NCBI GenBank assembly: GCA_964407865.1 | Contig: CAYOXC010000001.1 | Coordinates: forward strand, 109,642-173,641 | DNA from: an uncultured Gammaproteobacteria bacterium | GTDB lineage: Bacteria; Patescibacteriota; Patescibacteriia; Magasanikbacterales; GWA2-37-8 | Direction of reading: 5' to 3' | DNA: 64,000 nucleotides | Notes under the pieces: model-generated | Databases searched by the model: none | Seen by the model: only the letters and a program-made list of their open reading frames with translations | What the model was told of the DNA's origin: nothing | Made by a program: the position numbers and the translations under genes | In this document: positions 29,443 through 50,225 of the stretch, piece after piece | How the letters are laid out: each line of letters starts with the position of its first letter | Numbering within the stretch: the stretch's first letter is position 1

Positions 29443-29721
29443 TTAGGCGGTGACGATGTTGACAAACTGAGTCAATTTCATTGAGCCGTCAAATCGTTTG
29501 CGTTTGCGTGAAGTAAACTTGACTTTTCCTTCAGCCAATGCAAAAAGAGAATCGTCGTTGGCGCGTTTAACATTTTTCCCGGCGTGAATCCGAGTTCCGC
29601 GCTGTTTAACGATTATCATTCCTGGTTTGATTGTCATGCCGTCGTGAACTTTTACCCCGAGCCGCTTTGATTGAGAATCGCGACCGAGCCGTGTAGAGCC
29701 GCCGGCTTTCTTATGGGACAT
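29443..29721 (-). CDS. rpmA: 50S ribosomal protein L27.
   Basis: [24 protein letters not shown]... Confidence 0.9.
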
Positions 29722-29728
29722 ATATTAA

Positions 29729-29834
29729 AATTTTTAATTTTTAAATTTTATAATTTTTAAACGCTAATGAATCGATATTAATTTATAGACAATTTTTAAT
29801 TTTTAAATTTTGTAATTTTTAAACGCTAATGAAG
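29729..29834. repeat. Two copies of a 44-bp AT-rich direct repeat with a 62-bp period, in the divergent rpmA / mraY-like intergenic region. Related copies lie at 1284-1320 and 32018-32070.
   Basis: aatttttaatttttaaatttt(a/g)taatttttaaacgctaatgaa appears twice. The copies contain TATAAT / TGTAAT -10-like hexamers. Confidence 0.7.
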
Positions 29835-29920
29835 TAATATGTAGCCAGATTTTACTATAATATCTAATATTTGTCAATATTTAGCTAGTTTGATAGAATA
29901 ATAGCTAAATATAGCAAAAT

Positions 29921-31984: not shown

Positions 31985-32014
31985 CCCCGGAATAATTTCC
32001 GGGGTTTTTTATTT
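31985..32014 (+). terminator. Rho-independent terminator after rplU.
   Basis: CCCCGGAA-taat-TTCCGGGG followed by TTTTTTATTTT. Confidence 0.7.
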
Positions 32015-32140
32015 TCAGAACGCTAAATTTTGTAATTTTTAAATTTTAATTTTGTAAATAATTTTTAATGTCAAATTTTTAAACATTGAAAATTAAGATT
32101 TATTTAAAAATTATAAAATTAAAAATTTTTAAATTATATT

Positions 32141-32743
32141 TTACTTCCGATTCTTCAAAGCACTAGTAAGTGTTATCTCATCGGCGTATTCCAGATCAGA
32201 ACCCATTGGCAATCCGCGCGCTAGCCGAGTCGTTTTTATTTTAGGCCAATTTTTTTTAATTTGCCTTTCAATATACATGGCAGTGGTTTCTCCAGGCAGA
32301 TCAGGGTTTAGAGCTAAAATCACTTCCTTAACTTCATTTGGTTTGGACGCTAGGCGTTTCCACAATTCTTTTGTTTTAAGGCTGTTGTTTACTCTAGATT
32401 CGTCTGCTAAATCAACAACACCTCTTAAGACATGATATAAACCTTTAAATTCATTTGTTTTTTCCAGAGCGGCCAGATCCTGTGAGCCGGCGACAACACA
32501 GACGATTGATTTGTCGCGTCTTATGTCTGCGCAAATTGGACAGGGTGATGTTTCACTAAAATTCCAGCAGACCTCACAGCTTTTAACGCGCTTTAATAAA
32601 TATTCAAGTGCCTGGCGCATTTCATCAACATCTTTTTTTCCTTTCGACAACCAATGAAAAACAAAACGCTCAGCCATTTTTTGGCCGACCGAAGGGAGTT
32701 TTTTCAACTCATCAATCAGCTGGTTAATTGCTTTTGAATACAC
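32141..32743 (-). CDS. recR: Recombination protein RecR.
   Basis: PSVGQKMAERF, the zinc finger CEVCWNF...CPIC, and a Toprim region. Confidence 0.9.
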   Translation of the reverse strand: MYSKAINQLIDELKKLPSVGQKMAERFVFHWLSKGKKDVDEMRQALEYLLKRVKSCEVCWNFSETSPCPICADIRRDKSIVCVVAGSQDLAALEKTNEFKGLYHVLRGVVDLADESRVNNSLKTKELWKRLASKPNEVKEVILALNPDLPGETTAMYIERQIKKNWPKIKTTRLARGLPMGSDLEYADEITLTSALKNRK

Positions 32744-48626: not shown

Positions 48627-48649
48627 AAAATCTTACACGCAAACTGCCA

Positions 48650-48677
48650 AACACCCTGAGATACGGGGTGTTTTTAG
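48650..48677 (+). terminator. Rho-independent terminator after rpsI.
   Basis: ACACCC-tgagatac-GGGGTGT followed by TTTTT. Confidence 0.65.
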
Positions 48678-48734
48678 TTTGAATAATAGCCGTAAAGATG
48701 ATATTATAGCCATAATATATGGAGAATAGTTATT

Positions 48735-48764
48735 TTATTTCTGGTAGTTGACATGCCGGGTATG
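48735..48764 (+). promoter_or_regulatory. Third copy (right-arm type only) of the start-codon-embedding motif, at the flippase gene.
   Basis: TTATTTCTGGTAGTTGACATGCCGGGTATG. GGAGAATAG at 48721-48729 and a TTGAAT-N17-TATTAT promoter-like pair at 48677-48705 lie upstream. Confidence 0.5.
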
Positions 48765-50225
48765 GTGTATTCAGTGGCAAAAAATACGTCGTTTTTAACG
48801 GCTGCATCAATAGGACAAAAGATTATTTCTTTTGTTTATTTTACAATTATCGCCAGAATTATTGGTGTTGAGAACACTGGTCAGTATTTTTTTGCGTTGA
48901 CATTTCAAAATATATTTGCCGTATTTGCTGATTTTGGAGTTGCCCAAGTGTTAACCAGAGAGATTTCTAAGTCGTCAGAAAAAACTCAGTCCATTTTTTC
49001 AACTGCTTTAGGCAGTAAATTTGTATTTGGCGGTGCAGCATATGTTGCGGTTGTGATTTTTGTAAATTTGCTTGGTTATTCTGATCAGATCAAAAATTTA
49101 ATTTATTTGGCGGGACTGACGATGTGGTTTGATAATTTTCATTCTTTATTTTACGCGGTTTTTAGAGCAAAGAGGAATTTATTTTTTGAATCAGCCGGAA
49201 TAGTTGGATCCCAGCTTTTAACATTATTAATTGGAACGATTGCTCTTATTTTTCGTTTACCGCTAATTTGGTTAATTGCTGCTTACACTATTCCAAGTTT
49301 TTTGAATATGATTTTTTCTGGATGCTTGGCGGTGAAATACCTTGGAATACGTATTCAAATGTCATTTAAGCAAATTCACTGGAAGGAATTTTTAGCCATG
49401 GCTTGGCCTTTTGCTCTGGCGGGTATTATTGGCAGGCTTTACGCTTATAGCGATAGTTTGCTTATGTCAAAAATGCTAGGAGAACGTGAGTTGGGCTGGT
49501 GGAGTGTGCCCTATAAGATAACCTTTGCTTTTCAATTTATACCCCTAGCTTTATCTGCCAGTGTTTATCCTGTTTTTAGTTCGCTTTGGCTCAGTGACAG
49601 AGCGGCTTTAGCAAAATTATTTGAAAAATCATGGCGGTATTTATTTACAATTGTTTTCCCTCTGTCAGCTGGAATTTTTGCCATTGCAGGGCCCTTTATA
49701 TCAACGGTTTATGGAGATAATTATTTACCTTCAATATTGCCGCTAAGGGTTTTGATGATAAGTCTTTTTTTCGGTTATTTATCTCTTCTTACCGGAGCAT
49801 TATTGAATGCTATTGGTCAGCAACGCAAACAGACATCTATTATGGCAGGTGCGCTTGTTATAAATTTGGCTCTTAATATCATGCTCATTCCCGCTGTTGG
49901 TATAGTCGGGGCGGCGATTTCTGCGCTGGTAAGCAATGTATTTATTTGGATTATTGGTTATGTGTTAATACAAAAATATATAGAATTTAACCATAAGACA
50001 ATATTTATATATGCCTTACGATCGTTTTTCCCCGCCATTATTATGGGTTTGCTGGTCTTCTTGCTTACTTTAAAAGTTAGTTTTATTTTAGCAATACCTA
50101 TTGGTATGGCAGTTTATTTCGTGTTAATGTTTGTAAGCGGAGGTTTATCCAAACAAATTATTTTAGAAGTTAAAAATAAGGTAATTGGAGAAAAAGCCTA
50201 TGAAAATATTGATCACCACACTTGA
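48753..50225 (+). CDS. Polysaccharide-biosynthesis flippase (MOP/Wzx/MurJ-like). The true start may be the second ATG at 48762.
   Basis: About 14 transmembrane helices with an N-terminus typical of Wzx-like transporters. Confidence 0.7.
   Translation: MPGMVYSVAKNTSFLTAASIGQKIISFVYFTIIARIIGVENTGQYFFALTFQNIFAVFADFGVAQVLTREISKSSEKTQSIFSTALGSKFVFGGAAYVAVVIFVNLLGYSDQIKNLIYLAGLTMWFDNFHSLFYAVFRAKRNLFFESAGIVGSQLLTLLIGTIALIFRLPLIWLIAAYTIPSFLNMIFSGCLAVKYLGIRIQMSFKQIHWKEFLAMAWPFALAGIIGRLYAYSDSLLMSKMLGERELGWWSVPYKITFAFQFIPLALSASVYPVFSSLWLSDRAALAKLFEKSWRYLFTIVFPLSAGIFAIAGPFISTVYGDNYLPSILPLRVLMISLFFGYLSLLTGALLNAIGQQRKQTSIMAGALVINLALNIMLIPAVGIVGAAISALVSNVFIWIIGYVLIQKYIEFNHKTIFIYALRSFFPAIIMGLLVFLLTLKVSFILAIPIGMAVYFVLMFVSGGLSKQIILEVKNKVIGEKAYENIDHHT

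What the first reader, a model, noticed from the sequence alone, without database searches (positions are those of the whole stretch)
48721..48764. Third, partial copy: the motif spans two in-frame ATGs of the flippase gene
GGAGAATAG-N11-TTCTGGTAGTTGACATGCCGGGTATG. Here the motif includes an earlier in-frame ATG at 48753 and ends in the ATG at 48762. By analogy with the alaS and rpmJ copies, the second ATG is probably the real start. I found no left-arm partner within 200 nt upstream, so right arms may exist without left arms. That argues for a leader or binding-site motif rather than an obligate TIR element.
Basis: seen in the sequence. Interest (0 to 1): 0.5.

Follow-up and report, generated by a model that had tools for sequence, protein, structure and literature searches.

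The report
Leftover end of a mobile nuclease element
The motif in front of the flippase gene is the broken-off right end of a small mobile element that is widespread in ultra-small (Patescibacteria) bacteria, whose intact copies carry a GIY-YIG nuclease gene, sit exactly on the start codon of host genes and hand the gene a new ATG.

Summary
The sequence is at 48721-48764, contains two in-frame ATGs, and has no left arm anywhere nearby.

The interpretation as a leader or binding site does not hold. The arms are the two ends of a mobile element family found in over 120 Patescibacteria metagenome contigs and three genomes. Its layout is TATG, left arm, interior, right arm, TATG, then the host gene.

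- **Intact copies:** about 320 nt, encoding a ~101-aa GIY-YIG nuclease. It starts at the left ATG and stops at a TGA in the right arm, 10 nt before the host ATG.
- **Short copies:** 71-246 nt, internally deleted.
- **Host genes:** about 92% of right ends abut a long ORF, and the host genes are unrelated.
- **Relatives:** four syntenic loci lack the element before alaS, rpmJ and the flippase, and have a single TATG there.

The flippase copy is a 43-nt, 5'-truncated remnant still flanked by TATG (48718-21 and 48761-64). The ancestral ATG (48719) now opens a 10-codon uORF ending at the family's stop (48749-51).

Homologue N-termini (MxYSVAKNTSFLT) and the family rule favour 48762 as the start. 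I found no description of this family, and its transposition mechanism is unknown.

The parts
48718..48721 (+). Left flanking TATG. ATG 48719-48721 is the presumed ancestral flippase start codon and now opens the uORF.
   Evidence: sequence. Relatives have one TATG at the flippase start. 88 of 101 family copies have TATG at the left flank.
48722..48760 (+). Body of the remnant (39 nt), GAGAATAGTTATTTTATTTCTGGTAGTTGACATGCCGGG. It is the 3' end of the element. The left arm and most of the interior are missing.
   Evidence: GAGAATAG plus the right arm is shared with the rpmJ copy (44879-44926).
48741..48764 (+). Right-arm core CTGGTAGTTGACATGCCGGGTATG. It differs at 4 of 24 positions from the alaS arm.
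   Evidence: (family D3).
48719..48751 (+). 10-codon uORF MENSYFISGS*. It runs from the ancestral ATG to TGA 48749-51, which is the family's conserved nuclease stop codon in the same frame.
   Evidence: win_flip: the left ATG reads through to the conserved TGA.
48753..48755 (+). Upstream in-frame ATG, created by ATA>ATG change inside the arm (consensus TGATATAC, here TGACATGC). Probably not the main start.
   Evidence: The same A>G change occurs in L051 and L086.
48761..48764 (+). Right flanking TATG. ATG 48762-48764 is the most likely flippase start.
48762..50225 (+). Flippase (Wzx-type, PF01943/PF13440) coding sequence from the preferred start.
48679..48707 (+). Promoter-like site TTGAAT-17-TATTAT with a TG extension. 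It lies 11 nt upstream of the ancestral ATG.
   Evidence: Relatives have TGATAAAAT, TGATACAAT or TGTTAAAAT 10-22 nt upstream of their ATG.
48649..48673 (+). Terminator-like hairpin after rpsI.
41716..41924 (+). Full-ended but non-coding copy in front of alaS. TATG 41716-19, body 41720-41920, TATG 41921-24.
   Evidence: Relatives have mnmA or the small CBU_0592-family gene (carS in L001) directly followed by alaS.
44720..44930 (+). Full-ended but non-coding copy in front of rpmJ. TATG 44720-23, body 44724-44926, TATG 44927-30.
   Evidence: The empty site in relatives reads ..ATATGAAAGTT.
6995..7146 (+). Probable old, strongly diverged copy in front of a 700-aa membrane protein. Its right arm ends in ATG 7144.
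   Evidence: It scores only weakly against the family profiles (E = 1.4 and 4.9).

Best explanation
The motif at 48721-48764 is a 43-nt, 5'-truncated fossil of a small mobile element. It is not an independent regulatory motif.

**The element family**
- It lives in Patescibacteria and has the layout TATG | left arm CCCNGTAATACAACTTCCAG | interior | right arm CTGGAAGTTGATATACNGGG | TATG + host gene.
- The two arms pair with each other.
- Intact copies are about 320 nt. They encode a ~101-aa protein that is little more than a GIY-YIG nuclease catalytic domain. Its start codon is the left ATG, that is, the host gene's original start codon and initiation signals. Its stop (TGA) lies in the right arm, 10 nt before a regenerated ATG that now starts the host gene.
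- Shorter copies are internal-deletion derivatives. They keep the arms and two inner helices.

**In this genome**
- The element entered the TATG at the start of alaS, rpmJ and the flippase gene after the split from the sampled relatives.
- The alaS and rpmJ copies lost the nuclease gene but kept both ends.
- The flippase copy also lost its left arm and most of its interior, so it can no longer pair or move.
- Its present-day effect is passive. It lengthens the flippase leader by 43 nt and leaves a 10-codon uORF (48719-48751) that ends at the family's stop, 10 nt before ATG 48762.
- Flippase translation most likely starts at 48762, either by re-initiation after the uORF or by direct initiation on this unstructured leader.

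**Shown:** homology to the family, the TATG flanks, absence in relatives, the uORF frame, and the homologue N-termini.

**Inferred:** that the nuclease mobilises the element, how it does so, and how the host gene is translated.
For: **The arms belong to one family**
- Window copies share the arms.
- The arms pair as a closing stem of >20 bp in the alaS copy and 11 bp in the rpmJ copy. Both folds beat all 200 shuffles (z = -4.1 and -3.4).
- The same arms occur in Azambacteria, Saccharibacteria and another Patescibacteria genome.

**Architecture of the metagenome copies**
- Left arms sit at discrete distances from right arms. The flank is TATG in 88 of 101 copies. The variable arm base is complementary in 92 of 101.
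- The 317-326-nt class has one ORF from the left ATG to the TGA in the right arm. It matches Pfam GIY-YIG at E = 2.8e-15 and the solved UPF0213 protein 1zg2.
- At least 875 protein clusters of ~101 aa match it, and those with a source name are annotated only generically.
- Third codon positions are 97-98% conserved in the arms and 66% in the interior.
- Three helices carry compensatory changes.

**Position at gene starts**
- The terminal ATG opens an ORF of >=50 codons in 78 of 85 complete cases, against 30% for all TATG sites.
- Host genes are diverse, for example L20, L15, L22, DnaB, Pgk, PheS and MreB (names assigned by eye from N-terminal sequences).

**Insertion rather than ancestral motif**
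- Four syntenic loci from relatives have no arms and a single TATG at each of the three sites.
- Tandem copies share one TATG.

**Truncated remnants exist elsewhere**
- L023 and L041 keep only the 3' end of the nuclease gene plus the right arm.

**The flippase copy**
- TATG lies on both sides and the uORF is in frame to the conserved TGA.
- Homologue N-termini favour 48762.
- The leader shows no significant RNA structure.
Against: - **Weak profile score:** against the independent family profile the flippase copy scores only E = 0.19. The case rests on that score together with its exact position on a gene start, the TATG flanks and the shared GAGAATAG with the rpmJ copy.
- **No intact element here:** no intact GIY-YIG element was seen in this 64-kb window, and the rest of the genome was not available. 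An autonomous partner in this organism is therefore not shown.
- **Loss not excluded:** absence in relatives could in principle be precise loss rather than gain.
- **Biased sample:** the metagenome sample was selected with a right-arm-plus-TATG pattern. It cannot reveal copies in the opposite orientation or with divergent right ends, so the start-codon and orientation rules may be overstated.
- **Coupling is not general:** only 15 of 52 short copies keep the frame open from the left ATG to the conserved TGA. Re-initiation cannot be the general way host genes are expressed.
- **No activity data:** nuclease activity, the cleavage site and the transposition chemistry are all untested.
Confidence: 0.8

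Rival explanations
1. First reader's view. The right arm is a self-standing 5' leader or protein-binding motif placed in front of certain genes, and left arms are optional.
For: The arm always abuts a start codon. 5'-truncated copies keep the whole right arm. The sequence of the arms is far more conserved than the interior.
Against: The motif is not present at the orthologous sites in four syntenic loci from relatives. Host genes form no functional group. All but two copies with 400 nt of upstream sequence have a left arm. The right arm contains the C-terminus and stop codon of a nuclease gene. No Rfam family matches.
Confidence: 0.07
2. The remnant has been co-opted. The 10-codon uORF ending 10 nt before ATG 48762 now couples flippase translation to initiation at the old start codon. 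Selection then keeps the frame and the stop.
For: The 43-nt remnant preserves the reading frame from the ancestral ATG to the family's conserved TGA. 15 of 52 short copies elsewhere also keep this frame open over 18-50 codons, which looks well above chance by a rough estimate that was not computed with a tool. The promoter-like site lies 11 nt upstream of the old ATG. The leader has no Shine-Dalgarno-like sequence.
Against: For a 10-codon stretch the open frame has an appreciable chance probability, roughly one in six by a rough estimate. Most short copies (37 of 52), and the alaS and rpmJ copies here, do not keep the frame, yet their host genes are presumably expressed. There are no expression data.
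Confidence: 0.3
3. The family's arms act mainly at the RNA level. The long P1 stem joins the two ends of the insert in the host transcript, so that it is cut out or unmasked (as with intervening sequences in rRNA). This lets the host tolerate the insert. DNA mobility would depend on something else.
For: Compensatory changes occur in three helices, including inside the coding region. Both arms carry ATA on the same strand, giving a 3x3 loop, which points to a single-stranded structure. The TATG/TATG flanks pair only with G-U wobbles, which fits RNA. GIY-YIG-encoding, non-intron insertions have been reported in rRNA genes of these bacteria (PMC11270868).
Against: Single-stranded DNA would give the same covariation. 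Near-identical 155-158-nt copies sit in front of different genes, which needs DNA-level mobility using the conserved ends. No processing data exist. This does not apply to the flippase remnant, which has no partner arm and no significant fold.
Confidence: 0.25
4. Chance resemblance. The flippase upstream sequence merely looks like the arm.
For: The independent profile E-value is only 0.19 for the whole window.
Against: The match ends exactly on a homology-supported start codon. It is flanked by TATG on both sides. It shares a further 8-mer with the rpmJ copy. It is an insertion relative to all relatives. A match to 16 fixed positions with at most 1 mismatch is expected about 0.0015 times in 128 kb by my own arithmetic (uniform base frequencies assumed, not corrected for the AT-rich composition, not a tool result). 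The shuffles for <=3 mismatches expected 0.32.
Confidence: 0.03

Closest known systems
Miniature inverted-repeat transposable elements of bacteria (for example Correia elements of Neisseria, Rickettsia palindromic elements)
   Same: They are small (70-330 nt) and multi-copy, with terminal inverted repeats of about 20-24 nt. A short direct repeat (TATG) lies on both flanks. Non-coding deletion derivatives share ends with a coding parent. They are inserted in transcribed regions next to genes.
   Different: The coding parent carries a ~101-aa GIY-YIG nuclease, not a DDE transposase. The ORF spans the element from end to end, so that the arms encode its N- and C-termini. Copies sit on start codons in one orientation. 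Inner helices are conserved as well as the ends.
Free-standing GIY-YIG homing endonuclease genes (T4 Seg proteins; I-TevI as the intron-borne relative)
   Same: A GIY-YIG catalytic domain is encoded by a selfish insert between or in front of conserved host genes. Decayed copies are common.
   Different: There is no DNA-binding domain; the protein is about 101 aa, against 220-250 aa. There is no single cognate homing site, because dozens of unrelated host genes share only TATG. It has inverted-repeat ends and non-autonomous derivatives, which homing endonuclease genes lack.
IS200/IS605-family single-strand transposons
   Same: Insertion lies next to a specific tetranucleotide in a fixed orientation. 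Conserved subterminal hairpins are present. There are strand-specific sequence features and very small non-autonomous derivatives.
   Different: There is no HUH (Y1) transposase. The two ends pair with each other over more than 20 bp. The tetranucleotide is present at both flanks.
UPF0213 / YhbQ-type stand-alone GIY-YIG proteins (PDB 1zg2, 1ywl), related to SLX1 structure-specific nucleases
   Same: This is the best sequence match for the element's protein. It has the same size and consists of a single domain.
   Different: As far as I know, those proteins are ordinary chromosomal genes without inverted-repeat ends. The relation to SLX1 comes from my own knowledge, not a test here.
GIY-YIG-encoding, non-intron insertions in rRNA genes of CPR bacteria (PMC11270868)
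   Same: They occur in the same group of organisms. A GIY-YIG ORF lies in short inserts that are neither group I nor group II introns. [quoted passage not shown]
   Different: Those inserts are in rRNA genes, and no ends or inverted repeats are described in the passages read. Whether they are the same family was not tested.

Membership tests
Start-codon GIY-YIG mini-element (family defined here from metagenome copies) | Right arm CTGGAAGTTGATATACNGGG followed by TATG whose ATG starts the host gene | tested here: met
   48741-48764 has 4 differences from the consensus. It ends on the homology-supported start.
Start-codon GIY-YIG mini-element (family defined here from metagenome copies) | Left arm TATGCCCNGTAATACAACTTCCAG upstream, pairing with the right arm | tested here: not met
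   The flippase copy has none on either strand. The arm is present in the alaS and rpmJ copies. The flippase copy is therefore filed as a truncated remnant, like L023 and L041.
Start-codon GIY-YIG mini-element (family defined here from metagenome copies) | TATG on both flanks and a single TATG at the empty site | tested here: met
   TATG at 48718-21 and 48761-64. Relatives have one TATG at the flippase, rpmJ and alaS starts.
Start-codon GIY-YIG mini-element (family defined here from metagenome copies) | GIY-YIG nuclease ORF from the left ATG to the TGA in the right arm | tested here: not met
   There is no GIY-YIG coding capacity anywhere in the window (tblastn). It is present in 32 of 34 copies of the ~320-nt class elsewhere. 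The window copies are non-autonomous.
Miniature inverted-repeat transposable element | Terminal inverted repeats, flanking direct repeat, small size, many copies | tested here: met
   Met for the family and for the alaS and rpmJ copies. The flippase copy has only one end.
Miniature inverted-repeat transposable element | Derived from, and mobilised by, an insertion sequence encoding a transposase with the same ends | tested here: not met
   The only coding relative with these ends encodes a GIY-YIG nuclease. No longer element was seen: every left arm lay within 400 nt, and none lay within 3 kb for the two solo ends. Mobilisation itself is not testable here.
Free-standing GIY-YIG homing endonuclease gene | GIY-YIG catalytic domain | tested here: met
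   PF01541, E = 2.8e-15, in intact family members. Not present in the window.
Free-standing GIY-YIG homing endonuclease gene | Spread into one cognate, long target site by cleavage and recombinational repair | tested here: not met
   More than 50 different host genes share only TATG and an A-rich upstream context. The protein has no room for a DNA-binding domain.
   No arm was found in L001 and L003-L005, which are syntenic over about 20 kb.
   Rfam 15 gave no hit at the gathering threshold, nor at E<=1 on the window region and on five element-bearing loci.
IS200/IS605-type single-strand transposon | HUH/Y1 transposase or TnpB | tested here: not met
   The only ORF in intact copies (~320 nt) is the GIY-YIG protein.
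IS200/IS605-type single-strand transposon | Insertion 3' of a fixed tetranucleotide in a fixed orientation, with subterminal hairpins | tested here: inconclusive
   The TATG flank and the conserved helices P2 and P3 are present. The sample was selected for one orientation, and the arms also pair with each other.

The most novel reading that the evidence does not exclude
The flippase motif is a fossil of a previously undescribed class of prokaryotic mobile element. It is a ~320-nt transposon-like unit whose only protein is a bare GIY-YIG nuclease domain. The unit folds, as single-stranded DNA or RNA, into a three-helix structure closed by its own ends. It inserts specifically at TATG start codons of leaderless or short-leader genes, takes over the host's initiation signals for its own ORF, and returns a new ATG to the host gene 10 nt after its stop. 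It has spawned families of 70-250-nt non-autonomous copies across Patescibacteria. Under this reading the conserved stop-to-ATG spacing, kept even in the 43-nt flippase remnant, is a built-in device for keeping the host gene translated.
Probability: 0.4. Interest if true: 0.85.

Novelty: new variant of a known kind. Interest (0 to 1): 0.62.

Why it matters
**For this window**
- It settles what the three or four 'motif' copies are.
- It fixes the probable flippase start at 48762. The database protein (P0001, 490 aa) is probably three residues too long.
- Translation of the right arm (...LEVDIRGM, MPGM) can produce spurious N-terminal extensions in automated annotation of these genomes.

**More broadly**
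- These bacteria have tiny genomes with few recognised transposons.
- The family colonises the one position where an insertion need not kill a gene.
- If the bare GIY-YIG domain is what moves it, that would add a new enzyme type to the short list of prokaryotic transposases.
- It would also give a compact, structure-guided nuclease to study.
- It may explain the unexplained GIY-YIG inserts reported in rRNA genes of the same bacteria.

Tried and rejected
- **Right arm as a -10 element for a leaderless transcript:** the hexamers at -12..-7 are GATATA, CATAAA, GACATG and GTTATA. They lack the conserved final T, and the promoter scan finds nothing there. Rejected.
- **GGAG of 'GGAGAATAG' as a ribosome-binding site:** it lies 37 nt (flippase) or 46 nt (rpmJ) upstream of the ATG. 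The first G belongs to the flanking TATG. The 9-mer is not enriched in the window. Family upstream regions almost never have such sites (2 of 100). Rejected.
- **Integron attC site:** the arms do not fit RYYYAAC / GTTRRRY, and the context is conserved core genes. Rejected by reading the sequence.
- **Group I intron or other known ribozyme or riboswitch:** copies of 71 nt exist, the ORF spans the whole element, and there are no Rfam hits. Rejected.
- **Recent copies of one master in this genome:** the interiors of the alaS and rpmJ copies barely align. They are old or come from different subfamilies.
- **Genome-contig scan with a full-element pattern:** it did not return the window's own genome. 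It gave three true hits and two chance hits, in Fictibacillus and Azonexus.
- **Look-up of a nuclease cluster seen on 62 contigs (P0190):** it was the same locus of one organism in many samples. It gives no evidence of multi-locus mobility, although it shows the same 10-nt stop-to-start spacing.
- **Literature:** eight full-text searches, including the arm sequences and the N-terminal peptide, found no description of the element. Subscription journals are largely outside that library, so prior description cannot be excluded.

Full report
**1. The observation**

The sequence is exactly as reported. GGAGAATAG lies at 48721-48729, 11 nt follow, and TTCTGGTAGTTGACATGCCGGGTATG ends at 48764. In-frame ATGs sit at 48753 and 48762, at the head of a 490-aa Wzx-type flippase ORF.

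The repeat finder groups this stretch with sequences ending in ATG at 41925 (alaS), 44931 (rpmJ) and 7147 (a membrane protein) (family D3). A spaced pattern taken from the alaS and rpmJ arms finds the flippase site with one mismatch. The window has seven hits at <=3 mismatches against 0.32 expected. Four of those hits are the right and left arms of the alaS and rpmJ copies.

No left arm is near the flippase gene. This was tested with a pattern and with a profile built from unrelated copies, over the whole window and both strands.

**2. What the arms are in this window**

Upstream of alaS and rpmJ the arms are about 160 nt apart. They pair as a closing stem of >20 bp in the alaS copy and 11 bp in the rpmJ copy. 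Both folds are better than all 200 shuffles.

Each copy is bracketed by TATG:
- alaS: TATG(41716-19)-CCCCG...CGGGG-TATG(41921-24)
- rpmJ: TATG(44720-23)-CCCTG...CAGGG-TATG(44927-30)

The interiors of the two copies hardly align. Neither encodes anything recognisable.

**3. Relatives**

The flippase has hundreds of homologues in Patescibacteria, several named Magasanikbacteria. The nearest are 62-68% identical. Loci around three of them (L001, L003, L004, L005) are syntenic with the window from mnmA to clpB.

None of these loci contains an arm. In them:
- alaS follows the preceding gene within 5-20 nt.
- rpmJ is preceded by ...ATATGAAAGTT.
- The flippase is preceded by a terminator, a TGnTAnAAT-type -10 box and, 10-22 nt later, TATGG.

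Each site has one TATG where the window has two with the element between them. The window sequence with the element removed is colinear with the relatives. At rpmJ, for example, TTTTTTGCTTAAAAAAT is shared with L004 just upstream. So these are insertions, or precisely lost insertions. They are not conserved leaders.

**4. The family**

A scan of species-representative genomes for both arms gave three true hits, in an Azambacteria, a Saccharibacteria and another Patescibacteria genome. The hits are mostly from groundwater and sediment.

In 101 unique copies:
- The left arm TATGCCCNGTAATACAACTTCCAG lies upstream at discrete distances.
- The left flank is TATG in 88.
- The one variable arm position is complementary between the arms in 92 (CCCAG/CTGGG 55, CCCCG/CGGGG 34, CCCGG/CCGGG 3).

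Element sizes fall into classes of about 150-160, 200-250 and 317-326 nt, plus two of 71 nt.

The 317-326-nt class is one ORF running from the left ATG to a TGA inside the right arm, for example MPSNTTSSVFFYVYVLES..RYIGYTNNLKKRIEEHKKG...DAKRRE.YLKTTQGRRFLGLRL...AFGTGS*. This ORF:
- matches the Pfam GIY-YIG catalytic domain at E = 2.8e-15
- matches the solved UPF0213 protein BH0048
- has at least 875 database clusters of ~101 aa, and those that carry a source name are called only 'excinuclease ABC subunit C', 'GIY-YIG nuclease family protein' or 'putative endonuclease'

The arms therefore encode the N-terminus (MPSNTTSS) and C-terminus (AFGTGS*) of the nuclease. The stop is always 10 nt before the terminal ATG (TGATATACNGGGTATG).

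**5. Constraints on the ends**

In 33 intact copies, third codon positions are 97-98% conserved in the arms and 66% in the interior. First and second interior positions are about 90% conserved. So the protein is under purifying selection, and the ends are also constrained as nucleotide sequence. Part of the right-arm figure is imposed by the search pattern. The left flank and the inner helices are not.

RNAalifold on these copies gives three helices:
- P1, the arms: 11 bp, a 3x3 AUA/AUA loop, then 10 bp
- P2: UGUUCUUCUA / UAGAAGAACA
- P3: GCCAAACGC / GCGUUUGGC

Each carries compensatory changes. At one P2 pair there are A-U 12, G-C 17 and G-U 3. At one P3 pair there are C-G 25, U-A 6 and U-G 2. 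The short derivatives keep P1, P2 (often as a tight hairpin) and P3, and delete the rest.

Both arms read ATA on the same strand. A purely double-stranded, symmetric recognition would not require that. This points to a single-stranded form, but DNA and RNA cannot be told apart here.

**6. Where copies sit**

Among right ends with a complete downstream ORF, 78 of 85 are followed by at least 50 codons starting at the terminal ATG. The figure for all TATG sites in the same DNA is 30%.

The host proteins are unrelated to one another. From their N-terminal sequences I read them as ribosomal proteins L20, L15, L22, L17 and S6, DnaB, Pgk, PheS, MreB, YidC, sigma factors, response regulators and others. 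These names were assigned by eye; no domain search was run on them.

Upstream of the left ATG the sequence is A-rich. It has a Shine-Dalgarno-like site in only 2 of 100 cases and often has a -10-like box 6-12 nt away. The targets therefore look like leaderless or short-leader genes.

Tandem copies share a single TATG (L024, L083, L117). Near-identical 155-158-nt copies precede different genes. This is the signature of mobilisation of non-autonomous copies.

**7. The flippase copy**

Read against the family, the flippase copy is TATG(48718-21) + 39 nt + TATG(48761-64). The 39 nt are the last part of the interior plus the right arm. The 8-mer GAGAATAG is shared with the rpmJ copy at a similar offset, so the two probably belong to one subfamily.

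Everything to the left is gone: the left arm, P2 and most of the interior. Two metagenome copies (L023, L041) are truncated in the same way. They still show the C-terminal part of the nuclease...RFLGLRL...AFGSGS*. Of the right arms with 400 nt upstream, only these two lacked a left arm. Solo right ends are therefore rare decay products.

The remnant lies between a promoter-like site (TTGAAT-17-TATTAT with TG, 48679-48707) and the gene. That site resembles the TGATAAAAT-AGCC box of relative L001.

The old ATG (48719) now opens MENSYFISGS*. Its TGA (48749-51) is the family's conserved stop, in the family's frame. The leader has no significant fold (z = +1.1).

**8. Start codon**

Nearly all of the first 70 homologues listed (of 120 returned) begin MxYS/TVAK/QNTSFLT. 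The window protein read from 48762 is MVYSVAKNTSFLT, identical in this stretch to P0010. From 48753 it has an extra MPG.

The 48753 ATG arises from an ATA>ATG change inside the arm. The same change is seen in L051 and L086. Together with the family rule, 48762 is the better call, at roughly 75%. Use of both codons cannot be excluded, because 48753 lies only 1 nt after the uORF stop.

**9. How it most likely works**

*Shown:*
- insertion at TATG start sites, with TATG on both flanks
- a nuclease ORF that uses the host's start codon
- a regenerated ATG 10 nt after its stop
- conserved, pairing ends and inner helices
- non-autonomous derivatives and truncated fossils

*Inferred:*
- The GIY-YIG protein mobilises the element through a folded single-stranded or cruciform form. 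It is related by sequence to UPF0213. From my own knowledge, not tested here, it is also related to SLX1-type structure-specific nucleases.
- The asymmetric TATG fixes the orientation.
- The host gene is translated by termination-reinitiation, or because ribosomes on the left ORF open P1.

The last point cannot be general in its simplest form. Only 15 of 52 short copies keep the frame open to the conserved TGA.

For the flippase remnant the element functions are lost. What remains is a longer leader with a short uORF.

**10. Comparison with known systems and novelty**

The family shares features with several known systems but fails a defining feature of each:
- **Bacterial MITEs:** it shares the ends, the flank repeat and the derivatives. 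It has no transposase-type parent.
- **Free-standing GIY-YIG homing endonuclease genes:** it shares the domain and the selfish habit. It has no DNA-binding domain and no single homing site.
- **IS200/IS605 elements:** it shares the fixed tetranucleotide, the hairpins and the strand asymmetry. It has no HUH enzyme, and its ends pair with each other.

Rfam has nothing for it. Eight full-text searches found no description.

The nearest report is of GIY-YIG-encoding, non-intron inserts scattered in rRNA genes of the same bacteria, judged not to spread by homing (PMC11270868). Whether they are the same family was not tested.

The finding itself is a decayed member of this family. The family is at least a new variant of known mobile-element kinds, and possibly a new class.

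**11. Limits**

- The metagenome sample was chosen with a right-arm-plus-TATG pattern. Reverse-oriented or divergent copies are invisible to it.
- The rest of this genome was not available.
- The flippase copy on its own scores weakly against the family profile (E = 0.19).
- No expression or activity data exist.

Noticed in passing
window 44612-44697: A long hairpin followed by a T-run lies between infA and rpmJ (ATCAATCATTGCGGTGTAG...CGCGGCAATGATTGAT-ATTTTTTG). Its stem sequence is almost unchanged in L001 and L003-L005, although those genomes are only about 65% identical at the protein level. It has no Rfam match. It is a candidate attenuator or autoregulatory leader of the rpmJ-rpsM operon.
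   Followed up: partly
window 6995-7146: A strongly diverged fourth copy of the element sits in front of a ~700-aa membrane protein. Both arms are recognisable and pair, but its TATG flanks are degraded. An in-frame ATG at 7093 lies inside the element, so the annotated start of this gene may also be too far upstream.
   Followed up: partly
window 41895-41924, 44901-44930, 48753-48764: Mechanical ORF calling extends alaS, rpmJ and the flippase upstream through the right arm (MLLEVDIRGM..., [10 protein letters not shown]..., MPGM...). The database protein identical to the flippase (P0001, 490 aa) uses 48753. Such arm-encoded N-terminal extensions are probably common in annotations of these genomes.
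   Followed up: partly
L093 (element at ~2280-2543), L011 and L119: Other small hairpin elements are nested inside family copies. One has related but different arms (CCCAGTATGATAACTTCGAC...GTCGAAGTTGCTCTACTGGG) in L093. A ~40-nt palindrome (CCCCGTATAGCTCCCC...GGGGTGATTATACGGGG) occurs in L011 and L119. This suggests a wider set of such elements.
   Followed up: no
L024, L083, L117: Tandem copies of the element share a single TATG between them. The right arm ...GGGTATG is followed directly by CCCNGTAATACA.
   Followed up: partly
L131-L140: One intact nuclease gene (P0190) is seen in the same HD-domain / GIY-YIG / DUF72 / amino-acid-kinase locus in many samples. The upstream gene's end overlaps the nuclease start by 11 nt, so the insertion changed that gene's C-terminus. 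In eight of the ten loci the downstream gene is called 10 nt after the nuclease stop; in L132 and L134 it is called from an upstream start that overlaps the nuclease gene.
   Followed up: no
window 1276-1325, 29720-29840, 32010-32150: AT-rich repeats of the type TTTTTAATTTTTAAATTTTGTAATTTTTAA occur in direct and inverted orientation in several intergenic regions (families D1, D2, D5 and I1-I6). They are unrelated to the element studied.
   Followed up: no
PMC11270868 (literature): GIY-YIG proteins in rRNA-gene insertions of CPR bacteria are reported to lie in inserts that are neither group I nor group II introns and not to spread by homing. They could be the same element family inserted in rRNA genes.
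   Followed up: no
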